Shown: piece after piece, positions 38,701-50,300 of the stretch | Numbering within the stretch: the stretch's first letter is position 1 | Layout: each line of letters opens with the position of its first letter | From: Phyllobates terribilis | Taxonomy: Eukaryota | Length of the DNA stretch: 64,000 nucleotides | Direction: 5' to 3' | Assembly: GCF_046119375.1 (NCBI RefSeq) | Contig: NW_027362771.1 | Location: forward strand, 580,878,001 to 580,942,000 | Program-made: the position numbers

Positions 38701-41700
38701 ACCAAATCCTGACTGATAGCAGTCCATTCTTGCATAATCAATGCTTGCATTTTGCCAGAATTTGTTGGTTTTTGTTTGTCCACCCGTCTCTTGATGATTG
38801 ACCACAAGTTCTCAATGGGATTAAGATCTGGGGAGTTTCCAGGCCATGGACCCAAAATCTCTATGTTTTGTTCCATGAGCCATTTTGTTATCACCTTTGC
38901 TTTATGGCAAGGTGCTCCATCATGCTGGAAAAGGCATTTTTGGGCGCCAAACTGCTCTTGGACAGTTGGGAGAAGTTGCTCTTGGAGGACATTCTGGTAC
39001 CATTCTTTATTCATGGCTGTGTTTTTAGGCAAGACTGTGAGTGAGCCGATTCCCTTGGCTGAGAAGCAACCCCACACATGAATGGTTTCAGGATGCTTTA
39101 CAGTTGGCATGAGACAAGACTGGTGGTAGCGCTCACCTCTTCTTCTCCGAATAAGCTGTTTTCCAGATGTCCCAAACAATCGAAAAGGGGATTCATCAGA
39201 GAAAATGACTTTGCCCCAGTCCTCAGCAGTCCACTCCCTGTACCTTTTGCAGAATATCAGTCGGTCCCTGATGTTTTTTCTGGAGAGAAGTGGCTTCTTT
39301 GCTGCCCTCCTTGAAACCAGCCCTTGCTCAAAGAGTCTCCTCCTCACAGTGCGTGCAGAAGCACTCACACCAGCCTGCTGCCATTCCTGAGCAAGCTCGG
39401 CACTGCTGGTAGTCCGATCCCGCAGCTGAAACAGTTTTAAGATACGGTCCTGGCGCTTGCTGGTCTTTCTTGGGCGCCCTGGAGCCTTTTTGACAACAAT
39501 GGAAGCTCTCTCCTTGAAGTTCTTGATGATGCGATAGATTGTTGACTGAGGTGCAATCTTTGTAGCTGCGATACTCTTCCCTGTTAGGCCATTTTTGTGC
39601 AGTGCAATGATGGCTGCACGTGTTTCTTTAGAGATAACCATGGTTAACTGAAGAGAAACAATGATACCAAGAACCAGCCTCCTTTTAAAGTGTCCAGTGA
39701 TGTCATTCTTACTTAATCATGACTGATTGATCGCCAGCCCTGTCCTCATCAACACCCACACCTGTGTTAATGGATCAATCACTAAAACGATGTTAGCTGC
39801 TCCTTTTAAGGCAGGACTGCAATGATGTTGAAATGTGTTTTGGGGGTTAAAGTTCATTTTCTGGGCAAATATTGACTTTGCAAGTACAGTAATTGCTGTT
39901 AAGCTGATCACTCTTTGACATTCAGGAGTATATGCAAATTGCCATTACAAAAAATGAAGCAGTAAACTTTGGAAAAACTACTATTTGTCTCATTCTCAAT
40001 ACTTTTGGCCATGACTGTACACTGGGGGGGGGGGGGTGAGGGGCCGGAGGTTATACACTGGGGGGTGAGGGGCCGGAGGTTATACACTGGGGGGGGCGAG
40101 GGGCTGGATGTTATACACTGGGGGGGTGAGGGGCCGGATGTTATACACTGGGGGGGGTGAGGGGCTGGATGTTATACACTGGGGGGGTGAGGGGCTGGAT
40201 GTTATACACTGGGGGGTGAGGGGCCGGATGTTATACACTGGGGGGGGGTGAGGGGCCGGATGTTATACACTGGGGGGGGTGAGGGGCCGGATGTTATACA
40301 CTGGGGGGGGGGGGGGGGGGGCGAGGGGCCGGATGTTATACACTGGGGGGTGAGGGGCTTGATGTTATACACTGGGGGGTGAGATGCTGGATGTACAGAC
40401 ACAACTCTAGGAGCGTCGGACATGTTGGTTGCCTCCAGCTTCCCAGAAGCAGATGGAAGTTATAACCTTGTGGCCAGAATGGCTTCTGTCTCTGGGGGGC
40501 AGCACTTTGTGACACTCACATATTACACTACTTTTCCTGGCAGATGGGTTCTGTCTTTTCCCATGTTTTCGTGCCTCCTTTCTCGTGCCCTGGTTACCCT
40601 TTGTGGTCCCAGGCTTCACCCTTTGTGGTCCGGGCTTTCCCCTGTGAATGGAGCGCGCCCTCACCGGAGCCGCTCGACTCTATTTATTGACATAAAGGCT
40701 TAGTTGTCAGAGCGCAGGTGACACATGACAGATTCTCCTCGTCCAGGTACACACAGCGCAGTATTTACCAGGAGCCGTGTCTCCAACACAACGCCGCTGT
40801 GCCGCTGCTGGAGAGGGGAGCACCACCGGCCACCATGGCATCCAAGACCAGTGGGAAGAGGGCCTCTGTGGCCAGCGTGCGGATCAGCCTGGACAACGCC
40901 GACAAAGCGGGACAGAAAATGGTAAAGTGTGTGACTGAGCTGTAGCATTATAATGTCTGCTGTAGAGTTATAAGCTTATTATATCGCTGATTGCAGCACA
41001 ACCGCAATGAGTAAGTCGGACATTCGTGGTCTGATGTGCGGCCGGGGGTCTCCTGTTCCAAGCTCAACAGTATAATTTGGGGTCAGGAGGGAGACCCCCG
41101 GCCGGCTCAGCCTTGACGCTCCATATTTAGACCATGAATTGTGCTGCAGTTTGCTGGAGCCACATTATATCATGAGACTGAACACAGCACTGACCTTATT
41201 ACACAGACTGGAGCATTATAGCCATATATCAGGTCTGCGGTGAGCGCTGCACTATTATCACCCTATAACACAGAACCAAAACCGAGGTGATAAAGAGGTA
41301 GTGTGTAATAACATTATTACAGGCGTGACGTTATACAGAAGCACAGAGGAGACTATAGGCTCGTACAATGTAATACTGTAGTGTGGGGGGGTAATTAAGT
41401 CAATTAATTTTCCTGAGGGGCCACACTAATAGGCTGAAATAAATTCTGCTCAGTATTAATATTAACATATTAAGTATCACTATTTTATATAATATTAATT
41501 GTATCACTTAATATTGATCAGAATTAAGTATGCTGACATCCCCCTATATACCATATGCCCCGCACACAGCCCACTATATACAGTATGAGCCCCCACACAA
41601 CCCCCTTATATACAGCATGATCCCACACAGACCTCCGATATACAGTATGAGCCCCCACACAGACCTCCGATATACAGTATGAGCCCCCACACACAGCTCC

Positions 41701-47300: not shown

Positions 47301-50300
47301 GGCAACAATAGCACGTAACCGGGTGACATTTTTTTTTTTTTTTGCAGTTCTGAAGTAAAGCAAACATTTAAATTTTACTTAAAGGGCCCATTTATTACAT
47401 AAGAGGTCATTTCTCCCAAAATAATGAATGCTTTTTCTTAACGCCCTGCTGAACCGAAGAAATATGGATATTTATAGATCTCTGATCAGTCCACTCTCCT
47501 AGCATTTGTAATGCTACTTACTCAGGGTTGGTGGCAAAAAAACAGGGGAAGAGAGTGACTGGGGGGCCGCACTCCACCTGGGCCCAGGGTGACTGGGTCA
47601 CCGCCCTCTGCTCGGACCCAGGGTGACTGGGTCACCACCCTCTGCTCGGGTCCAGGGTGACTGGGTCACCGCCCTCTGTCTGGGCCCACGGTGACTGGGG
47701 GGGGCCACCCTCTGTCCGGGCCCAGGGTAACTGGGGGGGGGGGGCGCACTCTGCCTGGGCCCAAGGTGACTGGGGAGGCCACACTCTGCCTGGGCCCAAG
47801 GTGACTGGGGAGGCCACACTCTGCCTGGGCCCAGGGTGACTTGGGGGCCACACTCTGCCTTGGCCCAGGGTGACAGGGGCGACAAACTCTGACTGGGGGG
47901 CCACACTATGCCCGGGCCAAGGGTAACTGGGGGGGGCCATCCTCTGTCCGGGCTTATGGTGACTGGGGGCCGCCCTCAGCTTAGGCCCAGGGTGACTGGG
48001 GGGGGCGCACTCTGTCTGGGCCCAGGGTAACTGGGGGGGCCGCCCTCTGCTCGGGCCCAGGGTAACTGGGGGGGCCATCCTCTGTCCGGGCTTATGGTGA
48101 CTGGGGGCCACCCTCAGCTTAGGCCCAGGGTGACTGGGGGGGCCGCACTCTGTCTGGGCCGAGGGTGACTGGGGGGGCCGCCCTCTGCTCGGGCCCAGAG
48201 TGACTGGGGGGGCCACCCTCTGTCCGGGCTTATTGTGACTTGGGGCCGCCATCTGCTTGGGCCCAGGGTGACTGGGGGGGGGCGCACTCTGTCCGGGCCC
48301 AGGGTGACTGGGGGGGCCGCACTCTGCCTGGGCCTAGTGTGACTGGGGAGGCCACACTCTGCCTGGGCCCAAGGTGACTGGGGAGCCACACTCTGCCTGG
48401 GCCCAGGGTGACTTGGGGGCCACACTCTGCCTGGGCCCAGGGTGACTTGGGGGCCACACTCTGCCTGGGCCCAGGGTGACAGGGGCGACAAACTCTGACT
48501 GGGGGGCCACACTATGCCCGGGCCAAGGGGGACCGGGGGCTGCCCTCTGTATGGGCCCAGGGTGACTGGGGGAGCCACCCTCTGCCCAGGGTGACTGGTG
48601 GGCTGAACTCTGACTGGGGCCAGGGTGACTGGGGGGGCCGCACTCTGCCTTGGCCCAGGGTGACTGGTGGGCTGAACTCTGACTTGGGCCAGGGTGACTG
48701 GGGGTCTTCACTCTGCCTGGGCCCAGGGTGACTGGTGGGCTGCACTCTGCCCAGGCTTTGATTTGCAGAACCCAACATACGGTATGTATAGAGAGTGCTC
48801 AGGAGCCATGTTATATGGCCGCCACCCAGTGCTCCGATCGCAGCAATTTAACCTCTTTAGATGCCGCTGACAATAGTAACCGCAACATTTAGGAGGTTTG
48901 AAATACGTCTGAGTCCCCTAGAGGGGACAAATAAAAATGAAAAAAAAATACAAAATTATAAAAGTCCATATCACCGCCTTTTTCCTGTAATTAAAATCCA
49001 AAATATGAAAAAATATATCAAAATAAATAATAAAAATATTAAATAATTAAAAAAGAAATAAGAAAAAAATATATTTGTTATCGCCGTGTGTGCAATCGAA
49101 ATGGCAAAATCACAGATTTTTAAGGATTTTACACCCCCCACCCAAAAAAATGGAATAAAATGATTTTGGAGAAGTCGTATGGATCAAAAAGTGGTGCCTA
49201 TAAAAGACTACAGCTCATACCGTAAAAAAACACCCTGATATAATGGTATCAAAGAAGAAATTAAAACGTTATATTTATTGAAGGCGAAGAGGGGCCCTCT
49301 GAGACGACTTCGCCATGTACTGACCTATTTCTGCTTTCTCTAACCCCCCCAGCCTCCGTCATTTGCCTCCCGGCCACCAGAGAAGGTCCAGGTCTCCGCC
49401 ATAAGGAACATTCTGGAAAGCTATCTCCCATTACGGTTGGGGGACACCACCTATGAGCCCCAAAAAGTGCCATCGCTAGTGAAGGAGATCAGCGAGGAGA
49501 TCAGGAGCCAGGTGAAGAAGGTCTTACCTGCACGATACAAGATGCTATGTGTGGCCACCATGGGCGAGAGGGGTCAGGAAGACATCAAAGTGGTCAGCCG
49601 CTGCCTCTGGGACCCCCATGCTGACAATTATGCAGCTCACGTGTACCAGAATGATAGTCTGTTCTGTGTGGTGTCTGTATACATGGTATTCTGCGAGTGA
49701 CACTGTGTGGGCCTGCTATGTGGCCGTCACTATATGTCCTGTCTGTCGTCAATGCCACCCCGGCCGTGGACCCAAGGACATTACTCTGCCCGCCGCATAC
49801 AAAGAAACTATGGAGGGAAAACAGACTTGTCAGACTCTGCTGTCTCTAGTAGTTATGGGGAAATGGAGTTTTCAGATGCTCTTAAAGGGTTAATCAGGGG
49901 GCACTAATGATGCCCATCACACAGCCCCCTGTATTGGAGTCTGGTGGGCTGCGCGCAGCATCAAATGTCCAGCTAAGACGGACACTATGGGGCATAACGT
50001 CAGCGAAAAGTCATATATATATATGTAACTACCCCGAAAACCGCTACCAGCCCCCCCCCACCCCCCACGTCTGGACATCACACGAATATCTCACCATGAA
50101 TCTAATGTGTAAGACGTCCCAATAAACCTTCAGGGTCTGGTTACAGATCCAGTGTCCGGTGCTCAGTTATCGGCTGTGATGTGGGATCAGATTTATTCTC
50201 CAGAATAGAAATCCCCGACCTTTATGAATAGAAGTGTTTGTGACCAGCTGCCAATGGAAAGCTGGAGAACGAGGGGCGTAGTGGTACCTCAAATATCAAC

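What the first reader, a model, noticed from the sequence alone, without database searches (positions are those of the whole stretch)
40835..49700. Extra Tctex-1/DYNLT-family gene between TIMM29 and SMARCA4
Seen: four all-phase-0 exons (87+105+57+348 nt) with canonical splice sites, a perfect Kozak and a downstream AATAAA assemble into a 198-aa ORF with a C-terminal Tctex-1 domain and an ~83-aa basic N-terminal extension I do not recognise. Established: human has no protein-coding gene here to my knowledge; the domain looks closest to TCTEX1D1/DYNLT5 and TCTEX1D4/DYNLT4, which lie on human 1p, as does the YIPF2 paralogue YIPF1. Inference: an ancient paralogue (possibly an ohnologue) lost in mammals, likely an axonemal or IFT dynein light chain. 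The ORF stays intact despite introns full of repeats, which suggests selection.
Basis: partly seen in the sequence, partly recalled or inferred. Interest (0 to 1): 0.65.

Follow-up and report, generated by a model that had tools for sequence, protein, structure and literature searches.

The report
Unnamed seventh-lineage dynein light chain gene
The four exons are a real, already annotated frog gene for a Tctex-type dynein light chain that belongs to an old vertebrate branch of the family with no counterpart among the six named human genes, so it is a modest but genuine gap in how this family is catalogued.

Summary
Four phase-0 exons (87+105+57+348 nt) with GT/AG borders, a GCCACCATGG start and an AATAAA 421 nt after the stop give four peptides. 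In that order they equal a 198-aa RefSeq protein of Phyllobates terribilis labelled 'DYNLT2B-like'. Exon 4 is a Tctex-1 domain (Pfam E 5.6e-27).

The gene lies between a Tim29 exon and a BRG1/SMARCA4-like QLQ exon.

It is not the orthologue of DYNLT2B, DYNLT4 or DYNLT5. In a tree of 67 named proteins it falls in a separate chordate lineage (98/93). That lineage has two jawed-vertebrate copies:
- A: this gene, in frogs, caecilians, sharks, rays and a chimaera.
- B: in amphibians, lungfish, coelacanth, turtles, crocodilians and one rodent.

AU tests reject joining A to DYNLT5, DYNLT4 or DYNLT2B (p 0.0007-0.01). Frogs also have separate DYNLT4 and DYNLT5. No amniote copy of A was seen.

The N-terminal extension carries a lineage-specific GLLAAQR motif and a conserved KRxS site.

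Function as an axonemal dynein light chain is inferred, not shown. DYNLT2 was not tested.

The parts
40835..40921 (+). Coding exon 1 (87 nt, 29 aa). The start codon sits in GCCACCATGG. It holds a conserved KRAS (KRxS-type) site at residues 8-11.
   Evidence: It matches residues 1-29 of the RefSeq protein P0004 and 21 of 30 relatives at E<=0.011. KRxS is present in 21 of 21 full-length anuran orthologues.
44191..44295 (+). Coding exon 2 (105 nt, 35 aa), phase 0. It holds the lineage-specific GLLAAQR motif.
   Evidence: It hits 30 of 30 relatives, including sharks and copy B. The motif is in 15 of 16 A/B/ray-finned rows and in 0 of 11 DYNLT4/5/2B/other rows.
46883..46939 (+). Coding exon 3 (57 nt, 19 aa), phase 0. 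It is probably a cassette exon.
   Evidence: It matches P0004 residues 65-83. The 179-aa isoform annotated in Anomaloglossus baeobatrachus (P0008) is the 198-aa isoform (P0009) minus exactly these 19 residues.
49353..49700 (+). Coding exon 4 (345 nt plus TGA, 115 aa). It contains the whole Tctex-1 domain.
   Evidence: Pfam PF03645, E 5.6e-27. The best PDB match is human DYNLT2B, E 1.7e-20, followed by Chlamydomonas LC2, 7.1e-19. It is 100% identical to P0004 residues 84-198.
49701..50126 (+). Presumed 3' untranslated region, ending at the AATAAA signal (50121-50126).
   Evidence: This is the only AATAAA/ATTAAA in the 900 nt after the stop. No transcript data were available.
40922..44190 (+). 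Intron 1. It contains two 31-bp tandem arrays (41536-41868 and 43456-43798) on either side of a degenerate Sleeping-Beauty/Tc1-like transposase remnant (42167-43176).
44296..46882 (+). Intron 2, with a 52-bp tandem array at 46057-46480.
46940..49352 (+). Intron 3, with G-rich 34/35-bp tandem arrays at 47555-48751.

Best explanation
This is a functional protein-coding gene of the golden poison frog. It is identical to the RefSeq model labelled 'DYNLT2B-like' and encodes a 198-aa Tctex-type dynein light chain.

It belongs to a chordate lineage of the DYNLT family that has no member among the six HGNC-named human genes. This lineage split into two copies before the common ancestor of sharks and bony vertebrates:
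- Copy A is this gene, lying between TIMM29 and SMARCA4. It is kept in frogs, caecilians and cartilaginous fishes and was not seen in amniotes.
- Copy B lies on the chromosome that carries DYNLT5, and in one frog DYNLT4. It is kept in amphibians, lungfish, coelacanth, turtles, crocodilians and at least one rodent.

Shown: the gene model, its conservation, its family, its placement in the tree, and its motifs.

Inferred: how it works. By analogy with the long Tctex2-type chains, the C-terminal Tctex fold would pair with another Tctex-type chain. The resulting dimer would clamp the disordered N-terminal part of a dynein intermediate chain. I think this more likely in an axonemal dynein (outer arm or I1/f) than in IFT dynein-2. 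The basic 83-residue extension would serve as a regulatory arm through its conserved KRxS site (a consensus for basophilic kinases such as PKA) and its GLLAAQR segment. Exon 3 is optionally skipped.

I put the identity and evolutionary part at about 0.85 and the mechanism at about 0.45.
For: Gene model:
- The exons and splice sites were read directly.
- The four exon peptides equal RefSeq P0004.

Selection:
- 26 of 26 hits at E<=1e-5 (of 29 candidates) to exon 4 are anuran proteins of 141-202 aa, from Ascaphus to dendrobatids.
- 21 anuran orthologues have 77% mean column identity, and the N-terminal motif is nearly invariant.

Family:
- Pfam Tctex-1, E 5.6e-27.
- PDB hits are dynein light chains only, 20 of 20 at E<=1.

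Placement (careful IQ-TREE, 67 named rows, 118 columns):
- DYNLT5 100/99, DYNLT4 99/97, DYNLT2B 100/99.
- A plus B vertebrate clade 100/98; with tunicates and amphioxus 98/93.
- A (amphibians plus chondrichthyans) 99/92.
- The window's exon 4 pairs with Bufo, 100/95.

AU tests:
- A (with the ray-finned group) held with DYNLT5: p 0.00066.
- Held with DYNLT4: p 0.0099.
- Held with DYNLT2B: p 0.0089.
- An amphibian-only duplication: p 0.0165.

Separate frog genes:
- DYNLT4 in Pelodytes.
- DYNLT5 in Rhinophrynus, Xenopus tropicalis, Ascaphus, Anomaloglossus, Pseudophryne, Rhinoderma, Pelobates, Hyperolius and Bombina.

Chromosome proxy, based on identical lengths of the longest contig that holds each protein:
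- B shares its contig with DYNLT5 in 9 species, and with DYNLT4 in Pelodytes.
- A lies on a different contig from B in all 8 species where both lengths are listed.

Motifs:
- GLLAAQR type in 15 of 16 A/B/ray-finned rows and 0 of 11 others.
- KRxS at residues 8-11 in 21 of 21 anuran A proteins and in window exon 1. DYNLT5 has KRGS or KKRS in 11 of 11.

Context for function, from passages read:
- In Xenopus multiciliated cells a Dnai2 pull-down enriched 'Tctex1d1', and GFP-'Tctex1d2' co-localised with the I1/f subunit Wdr78 (PMC7785291).
- In Ciona, a Tctex2-related outer-arm light chain is sperm-specific and is phosphorylated at activation of motility (PMC4427456).
Against: - No expression, localisation or binding data exist for this gene in anything I could read.
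- No RFX X-box-like site with at most one mismatch lies in 39717-41100. Shuffles averaged 0.54, so this says little.
- The KRxS and RVxF patterns are short, and their kinase or phosphatase meaning comes from consensus only. Caecilian A proteins lack KRxS (0 of 2).
- No named vertebrate DYNLT2 (TCTE3), DYNLT1 or DYNLT3 was in the tree.
- The order of branching among DYNLT4, DYNLT5 and the A/B lineage is unresolved (96/77, an open fork).
- The ray-finned fish group cannot be assigned. Holding it with B is not rejected (p 0.447).
- The tree rests on 118 columns, and the tool warns that this is few for 67 rows.
- Absence of A from amniotes, salamanders and lungfish rests on searches that are limited by a word index or collapsed to 50% clusters with only the best 150 of 1794 hits listed. 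I could put names to only 30 of the representatives.
- The contig-length proxy shows the same chromosome at most. It does not show adjacency.
Confidence: 0.7

Rival explanations
1. It is simply the frog orthologue of DYNLT2B (TCTEX1D2), as the RefSeq label suggests and as the Xenopus laevis member is named outright, moved to a new place and given a longer N-terminus.
For: NCBI names most anuran members 'DYNLT2B-like' and the X. laevis member 'DYNLT2B'. The best PDB hit of exon 4 is human DYNLT2B, E 1.7e-20. I did not show that frogs have a separate true DYNLT2B.
Against: Named DYNLT2B proteins (Cavia, Bubo) form their own clade at 100/99, far from A. Holding A with DYNLT2B costs 28.6 log-likelihood units, AU p 0.0089. 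The A/B lineage has its own tunicate and amphioxus relatives. DYNLT2B has a Chlamydomonas orthologue, Tctex2b (PMC8754002, Table 2, passage read), so the split is older than chordates. The two DYNLT2B rows lack the GLLAAQR motif. The PDB holds no chain named DYNLT4 or DYNLT5 among the hits, so 'best PDB hit' is biased.
Confidence: 0.03
2. It is the orthologue of DYNLT4 or DYNLT5 that moved from the 1p-like chromosome to the TIMM29-SMARCA4 interval.
For: Some members are labelled 'DYNLT5-like' (Bombina, Spea, Pelodytes). The KRxS site resembles the KRGS of DYNLT5. The branching order of the three lineages is unresolved.
Against: Frogs have separate genes named DYNLT5 (9 anuran genera) and DYNLT4 (Pelodytes). 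These cluster with mammalian, bird and fish DYNLT5 and DYNLT4 at 100/99 and 99/97. AU p is 0.00066 for DYNLT5 and 0.0099 for DYNLT4. The RVSF motif seen in 4 of 5 DYNLT4 rows is absent from the window's exons.
Confidence: 0.03
3. It is the orthologue of DYNLT2 (TCTE3), the outer-arm Tctex2 chain.
For: This was not directly tested. Chlamydomonas LC2, which Braschi et al. give as the DYNLT2 orthologue, is the second-best PDB hit, E 7.1e-19.
Against: DYNLT2 is present in human and mouse (PMC8754002). Yet among the representatives that fall in the A/B clade, only one that I could name is a mammal: Jaculus, in copy B, labelled 'DYNLT5-like' and not DYNLT2. In the preliminary FastTree, unnamed LC2-like sequences sit with the DYNLT2B group, outside A/B. 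This is weak evidence because the rows are unnamed. Braschi et al. describe DYNLT2 and DYNLT2B as close paralogues, and A is rejected from DYNLT2B.
Confidence: 0.05
4. The gene is real and belongs to lineage A, but the protein does not act as a dynein subunit. Instead it uses the Tctex fold as a general dimerisation or adaptor module, for example a scaffold for a phosphatase or kinase, or a cargo adaptor.
For: Dynein light chains also occur in complexes unrelated to dynein (PMC8754002, passage). DYNLT4 binds protein phosphatase 1 through an N-terminal RVSF (PMC3654263). The sister copy B has an RVxF-type motif in 29 of 34 rows. DYNLT4 and DYNLT5 are called 'not well characterized'.
Against: Every solved relative found is a dynein light chain in a dynein complex (20 of 20). 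Copy A itself has an RVxF-type motif in only 2 of 21 anurans and none in the window. There is no positive evidence for a non-dynein partner.
Confidence: 0.17
5. It is a decaying or chance open reading frame, or an annotation artefact.
For: The introns are crowded with transposon remnants and satellites. I saw no transcript evidence.
Against: The reading frame is intact, the splice sites are canonical, and all four exons are conserved in collinear order across anurans, caecilians and, for exons 2 and 4, sharks. Pfam E is 5.6e-27.
Confidence: 0.01

Closest known systems
Unnamed sister gene 'copy B' (RefSeq labels vary: DYNLT2B-like, DYNLT4-like, DYNLT5-like, DYNLT5-B-like; for example Bufo gargarizans P0188, Alligator P0036, Jaculus P0041)
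   Same: Both have a C-terminal Tctex-1 domain and a long basic N-terminal extension with the GLLAAQR-type motif. Together they form one vertebrate clade at 100/98.
   Different: Exon 4 is 37-49% identical to B-clade proteins. B is longer, 207-253 aa. B carries an RVTF-type (RVxF) motif near its N-terminus in 29 of 34 rows, against 2 of 21 for anuran A. B lies on the contig of DYNLT5, whereas A lies elsewhere. B is kept in turtles, crocodilians and a rodent, where A was not seen.
DYNLT5 (TCTEX1D1)
   Same: It is a long Tctex-type chain with a basic, serine-rich N-terminus and a KR[AG]S site. 'Tctex1d1' was pulled down with the outer-arm chain Dnai2 in Xenopus (PMC7785291). That suggests what A may work like.
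   Different: It forms a separate clade at 100/99, and AU p is 0.00066. It has no GLLAAQR motif (0 of 4 rows). It is 177-180 aa long and highly conserved from amphioxus to mammals. Frogs have it in addition to A.
DYNLT4 (TCTEX1D4)
   Same: It is a long Tctex-type chain with a disordered N-terminus carrying regulatory motifs. It is found in the sperm flagellum in human (PMC3654263, summary passage).
   Different: It forms a separate clade at 99/97, and AU p is 0.0099. Its hallmark RVSF PP1-binding motif is absent from the window's exons. A frog (Pelodytes) has DYNLT4 in addition to A and B.
DYNLT2B (TCTEX1D2 / Chlamydomonas Tctex2b)
   Same: It is the best solved relative of exon 4 (E 1.7e-20, aligned over 104 residues). 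It is a subunit of dynein-2 and of inner arm I1/f (PMC8754002). It is the model for how a Tctex2-type chain sits on an intermediate chain.
   Different: The solved human chain is 142 aa, against 198 aa here. It forms a separate clade, and AU p is 0.0089. It lacks the N-terminal motif.

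Membership tests
Tctex-1 / DYNLT family (Pfam PF03645) | Sequence match to the Tctex-1 domain profile above the curated cut-off | tested here: met
   Exon 4 scores E 5.6e-27, 94.3 bits against a cut-off of 22.8, covering profile positions 2-95 of 95.
Tctex-1 / DYNLT family (Pfam PF03645) | The domain lies at the extreme C-terminus, as in solved light chains | tested here: met
   The domain covers residues 17-110 of the 115-residue last exon. 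The PDB alignments run to within 1-2 residues of the chain ends.
Tctex-1 / DYNLT family (Pfam PF03645) | Forms a dimer that binds a dynein intermediate chain | not testable with these tools
I sent no complex job because no frog partner sequence was held. No experimental data were found.
DYNLT2B orthologue group | Clusters with named DYNLT2B proteins | tested here: not met
   Tree; AU p 0.0089.
DYNLT5 orthologue group | Clusters with named DYNLT5 proteins and is the only such gene in the species | tested here: not met
   Tree; AU p 0.00066. A separate DYNLT5 is annotated in 9 anuran genera, including the dendrobatoid Anomaloglossus.
DYNLT4 orthologue group | Clusters with named DYNLT4 proteins and has an RVSF motif before the domain | tested here: not met
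   Tree; AU p 0.0099. There is no RVxF-type motif in window exons 1-3.
DYNLT2 (TCTE3) orthologue group | Clusters with named vertebrate DYNLT2 | not tested
Only indirect arguments are available.
A/B lineage (unnamed; proposed here) | Falls in the clade holding the shark, amphibian, reptile and tunicate/amphioxus members | tested here: met
   A plus B 100/98; with tunicates and amphioxus 98/93; window exon 4 inside A at 99/92.
A/B lineage (unnamed; proposed here) | GLLAAQR-type motif in the N-terminal extension | tested here: met
   It is present in window exon 2 and in 15 of 16 A/B/ray-finned rows, and absent from 11 of 11 DYNLT4/5/2B/other rows.

The most novel reading that the evidence does not exclude
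Jawed vertebrates began with eight, not six, Tctex-type light chain genes. The extra pair, A and B, arose in the early vertebrate genome duplications from a chordate gene that is still single in tunicates and amphioxus. The pair then divided the regulatory roles: A kept a kinase-type KRxS site, and B gained a phosphatase-docking RVxF site. On this reading they are the phospho-regulated 'Tctex2-related' light chains of axonemal dyneins, known biochemically from fish and ascidian sperm. Copy A was then lost on the amniote stem. Part of the Xenopus work on 'Tctex1d2' and 'Tctex1d1' may really have used A or B.
Probability: 0.2. Interest if true: 0.55.

Novelty: new member of a known kind. Interest (0 to 1): 0.4.

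Why it matters
The consensus dynein nomenclature lists six Tctex-type genes. Its tree was built from six selected species; the passages I read name human, mouse, Chlamydomonas, sea urchin and Tetrahymena (PMC8754002). A lineage missing from human is invisible in that frame.

Here the lineage is well conserved in the main amphibian model, Xenopus. There its members are labelled DYNLT2B, Tctex1d2 or Tctex1d1-like. Those labels could lead experimenters to clone or interpret the wrong gene. Recognising the A/B lineage would tidy the annotation and add two candidates for the regulation of ciliary and sperm dyneins in non-mammals. It would also give a clean example of ohnologue loss in the 19p13/1p paralogy region; that regional assignment is recalled, not tested.

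It does not change what is known about how Tctex-type chains work.

Tried and rejected
- Exon 4 alone went to the large searches. Exons 1-3 were compared only locally with proteins already fetched and with Pfam (exons 1 and 2, no family). Profiles A2 and A3 were built from named proteins of other species.
No fold search followed.
- No complex prediction was sent. No frog DYNLT1/3 or intermediate-chain sequence was held, and a homodimer pass would only reflect likeness to solved dimers.
- X-box (RFX) scan of 39717-41100: 0 sites with at most one mismatch, against a shuffle mean of 0.54. This is uninformative.
- Rfam scan of the whole window: 0 matches at gathering score.
- Literature searches for the RefSeq-style names ('dynlt2b-like', 'dynlt5-like', 'tctex1d2-like', 'tctex1d1-like', 'dynlt4-like', 'Tctex-type protein 2B-like') found 0 papers. 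Searches on Tctex paralogues, evolution and loss listed nothing that describes this lineage, judging by titles and abstracts only.
- I could not tell which Xenopus gene was cloned as 'tctex1d2' or detected as 'Tctex1d1' in PMC7785291. The main-text passages give no accession, and supplements are closed.
- dN/dS could not be computed because no coding DNA of other species was available.
- The human locus was not examined.

Full report
**1. What is in the sequence**

Reading 40500-50200 and checking the borders by script gives four coding exons on the + strand:
- 40835-40921 (87 nt)
- 44191-44295 (105 nt)
- 46883-46939 (57 nt)
- 49353-49700 (348 nt including TGA)

Each internal border is AG...GT and all introns are phase 0. 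The start codon sits in GCCACCATGG. The only AATAAA/ATTAAA within 900 nt after the stop is at 50121. The window has no N.

The four translations are 29, 35, 19 and 115 residues. Exon 4 is a full Tctex-1 domain (PF03645, E 5.6e-27, 94.3 bits against a cut-off of 22.8). Exons 1 and 2 match no Pfam family. All 20 PDB sequences that exon 4 matches at E<=1 are dynein light chains. The best are human DYNLT2B (1.7e-20) and Chlamydomonas LC2 (7.1e-19); DYNLT1 is far weaker at 8e-8.

**2. The exon model is not new**

As the operators required, I handled the spliced model exon by exon and left out the joined step: I neither searched nor folded the joined 198-aa sequence.

Exon 4 alone found 26 proteins at E<=1e-5 among 29 candidates. 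All are anuran. The top one is 100% identical, 198 aa, and named by NCBI 'dynein light chain Tctex-type protein 2B-like [Phyllobates terribilis]'. Its sequence is the four exon peptides in order. In a local blastp each exon hits it at 100% over residues 1-29, 30-64, 65-83 and 84-198.

Against 30 chosen relatives, exon 2 and exon 4 hit 30, exon 1 hit 21 at E<=0.011, and exon 3 hit 19 at E<1e-5, always in collinear order. Twenty-one anuran orthologues, from Ascaphus and Bombina to dendrobatids, align with 77% mean column identity.

A 179-aa isoform annotated in Anomaloglossus lacks exactly the 19 residues of exon 3, so this exon is probably optional.

**3. Surroundings**

- A Tim29 domain ORF lies at 34030-34707 (+) (E 5.6e-59).
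- A weak Yip1 match lies at 25793-26179 (-) (E 1.5e-4, below the cut-off).
- A QLQ exon lies at 63669-63998 (+). Its 6 PDB hits are all BRG1/SMARCA4 chains, best 7.4e-34. No chain named SMARCA2 was among the hits, so the SMARCA4-versus-SMARCA2 call rests on these hits alone.
- Between Tim29 and exon 1 lies a 363-codon open Tc1/mariner transposase frame, 38628-39716 (-).
- The introns hold a Sleeping-Beauty-like remnant and 31-, 52- and 34/35-bp tandem arrays.
- Rfam finds nothing in the window.

**4. Relatives beyond frogs**

An exhaustive search of 1.84 billion cluster representatives with exon 4 gave 1794 hits at E<=1e-3; the best 150 were listed. All frog orthologues collapse into one cluster. 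The next hits are 36-49% identical.

The names that I could look up (30 representatives), together with a profile search that used named proteins of other species (89 hits at E<=1e-8 among 8000 scored candidates), show two groups:
- Group A (about 195-213 aa): all the frog proteins, two caecilians (Rhinatrema, Microcaecilia), and sharks, rays and a chimaera (Callorhinchus, Heterodontus, Scyliorhinus, Leucoraja, Rhinoraja, Pristiophorus, Mobula, Mustelus, Chiloscyllium).
- Group B (about 207-253 aa): a second gene in frogs, caecilians, salamanders, lungfish, coelacanth, turtles, crocodilians, the shark Heterodontus and one rodent (Jaculus jaculus).

Ray-finned fishes (sturgeon, bowfin, eels) have one related group. 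Tunicates (Clavelina, Styela) and amphioxus have relatives that branch earlier.

The labels given by the sources for A and B members are inconsistent: 2B-like, 2B, 4-like, 5-like, 5-A-like, 5-B-like, Tctex1d1-like, Tctex1d2-like.

**5. Is it the orthologue of a named gene?**

A third profile search returned 1124 hits at E<=1e-10 among 6665 candidates, with the best 120 listed. Nearly all are true DYNLT5 of 174-180 aa. They include Rhinophrynus, Xenopus tropicalis, Ascaphus, Anomaloglossus, Pseudophryne, Rhinoderma, Pelobates, Hyperolius, Bombina and two caecilians. A frog DYNLT4 (Pelodytes) was named. So amphibians have DYNLT4 and DYNLT5 in addition to A and B.

I built a careful maximum-likelihood tree of 67 named rows that I chose from the stored proteins. 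Unnamed rows were left out. It used the C-terminal 118 residues and LG+C20 by PMSF. Support values:

| Clade | Support |
|---|---|
| DYNLT5 | 100/99 |
| DYNLT4 | 99/97 |
| DYNLT2B (outgroup) | 100/99 |
| Vertebrate A plus B | 100/98 |
| A plus B with tunicates and amphioxus | 98/93 |
| A (amphibians plus cartilaginous fishes) | 99/92 |
| Tetrapod B | 99/95 |
| Jaculus with turtles and alligator | 100/94 |
| Window exon 4 with Bufo | 100/95 |

AU tests:

| Constraint | Log-likelihood loss | p |
|---|---|---|
| A (with the ray-finned group) held with DYNLT5 | 40.3 | 0.00066 |
| Held with DYNLT4 | 29.3 | 0.0099 |
| Held with DYNLT2B | 28.6 | 0.0089 |
| Amphibian-only duplication | 36.1 | 0.0165 |
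| All B rows as one clade | 0.5 | 0.48 (not rejected) |
| Ray-finned group held with B | 1.6 | 0.447 (not rejected) |

Caveats:
- The alignment has only 118 columns.
- The fork among DYNLT4, DYNLT5 and the A/B lineage is open (96/77).
- I named the groups after seeing a preliminary FastTree.

The case against DYNLT2 is therefore indirect. DYNLT2 exists in human and mouse (PMC8754002, passages). Yet the only representative in the A/B clade that I could name as a mammal is the Jaculus B protein.

**6. Ohnologue reading**

One shark has both A and B. Tunicates and amphioxus branch before the split. That places the duplication between the origin of vertebrates and the jawed-vertebrate ancestor.

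As a proxy for linkage I compared the length of the longest contig listed for each protein.
- B and DYNLT5 share an identical chromosome-scale length in 9 species: Rhinophrynus, Pseudophryne, Rhinoderma, Hyperolius, Pelobates fuscus, Microcaecilia, Protopterus, Ambystoma and Ascaphus.
- B and DYNLT4 share one in Pelodytes.
- A lies on a different contig from B in all 8 species where both are listed.

This shows linkage at most, not adjacency.

I did not examine any human sequence or the human locus.

**7. The N-terminal extension**

It is basic, about +11 net charge over 83 residues by hand count.

- Exon 2 carries a GLLAAQR-type motif. It is found in 15 of 16 A, B and ray-finned rows inspected, with a variant in amphioxus. 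It is absent from 11 of 11 DYNLT4, DYNLT5, DYNLT2B and other rows.
- Exon 1 carries KRAS at residues 8-11. A [RK][RK]x[ST] site at that place is present in 21 of 21 full-length anuran A proteins. I left out the window's own protein and six isoforms or partial entries. A site of this type occurs somewhere in the extension in 8 of 8 cartilaginous-fish A proteins and in 0 of 2 caecilians. DYNLT5 has KRGS or KKRS in 11 of 11.
- An RVxF-type motif, the docking pattern of protein phosphatase 1, is in 29 of 34 B rows (mostly RVTF near the N-terminus) and in 4 of 5 DYNLT4 rows (RVSF). It is in only 2 of 21 anuran A proteins and not in the window. The RVSF of human TCTEX1D4 was shown to contribute to PP1 binding (PMC3654263, passages).

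These are short patterns. What counts is that their position is conserved. Their biochemical meaning is inferred.

**8. How it most likely works**

Shown: it is a conserved member of the Tctex-type light chain family with a lineage-specific extension.

Inferred from the solved relatives and from the nomenclature review: the Tctex fold pairs with another Tctex-type chain and binds the N-terminal region of a dynein intermediate chain.

I favour an axonemal dynein over dynein-2, for these reasons:
- In Xenopus multiciliated cells 'Tctex1d1' came down with the outer-arm chain Dnai2, and 'Tctex1d2' co-localised with the I1/f chain Wdr78 (PMC7785291, passages; bioRxiv 10.1101/2022.07.05.498879, one passage).
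- A Tctex2-related outer-arm chain of Ciona is sperm-specific and phosphorylated when motility starts (PMC4427456, passages).

Which Xenopus genes those names stand for is not stated in the text I could read, and the supplements are closed. Because Xenopus A is labelled DYNLT2B/Tctex1d2 and Xenopus B Tctex1d1 in the databases, they could be A or B. This is an open lead, not evidence.

There is no X-box-like site near exon 1, which is uninformative.

**9. Novelty**

What I did not find in print is that these genes form a lineage apart from the six named DYNLT genes, with two ancient copies. Searches found no paper that describes this, judged from listings, abstracts and the passages cited. The nomenclature paper's tree used six selected species.

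I rate it a new member of a known kind. It is of moderate interest to dynein and cilia specialists and useful for Xenopus annotation.

Noticed in passing
not in the window; proteins P0188, P0207, P0213, P0036, P0210, P0041 and others: A sister gene, 'copy B', exists in amphibians, lungfish, coelacanth, turtles, crocodilians and the rodent Jaculus jaculus. It has an RVTF-type PP1-docking motif near the N-terminus in 29 of 34 rows. In 9 species it sits on the same chromosome-scale contig as DYNLT5. Further unnamed amniote-like representatives fall in this clade.
   Followed up: partly
not in the window; names: Members of one orthologous group carry at least eight different labels. The Xenopus laevis orthologue of this gene is named DYNLT2B outright, and Xenopus tropicalis copy B is 'Tctex1d1'. 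Xenopus studies that use 'Tctex1d2' or 'Tctex1d1' (PMC7785291) may therefore concern A or B. The text I could read gives no accession.
   Followed up: partly
not in the window; P0055 (Pelodytes), P0058 (Aldrovandia): The RVSF motif of DYNLT4 is present in a frog and in a ray-finned fish DYNLT4. A passage of PMC3654263 says the motif emerged in placental mammals.
   Followed up: no
window 46883-46939; P0008 and P0009: Exon 3 (57 nt, phase 0) corresponds exactly to the 19 residues missing from an annotated 179-aa isoform in Anomaloglossus, so it is probably a cassette exon.
   Followed up: partly
window 38628-39716 (-): A 363-codon frame without stops carries Tc3-type HTH (E 1.8e-18) and DDE_3 (E 8.9e-14) domains. 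It is a possibly intact Tc1/mariner transposase, lying between TIMM29 and exon 1.
   Followed up: no
window 41536-43798: A Sleeping-Beauty-like transposase remnant (42167-43176, broken across frames) is flanked on both sides by arrays of one related 31-bp unit (41536-41868 and 43456-43798).
   Followed up: no
window 47555-48751: About 1.2 kb of G-rich 34/35-bp tandem repeats lies in intron 3, with higher-order periods of 68 and 138 bp.
   Followed up: no
window 30464-32052: This stretch has G+C 0.65 and strong GC and AT skew. Long open frames of 190-521 codons occur in several frames on both strands. It is presumably a simple or satellite repeat.
   Followed up: no
window 10138-10948 (-): Retroelement remnants: an integrase core (rve, E 3.8e-10) and a Tf2-1-like SH3 domain (E 5.7e-8).
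   Followed up: no
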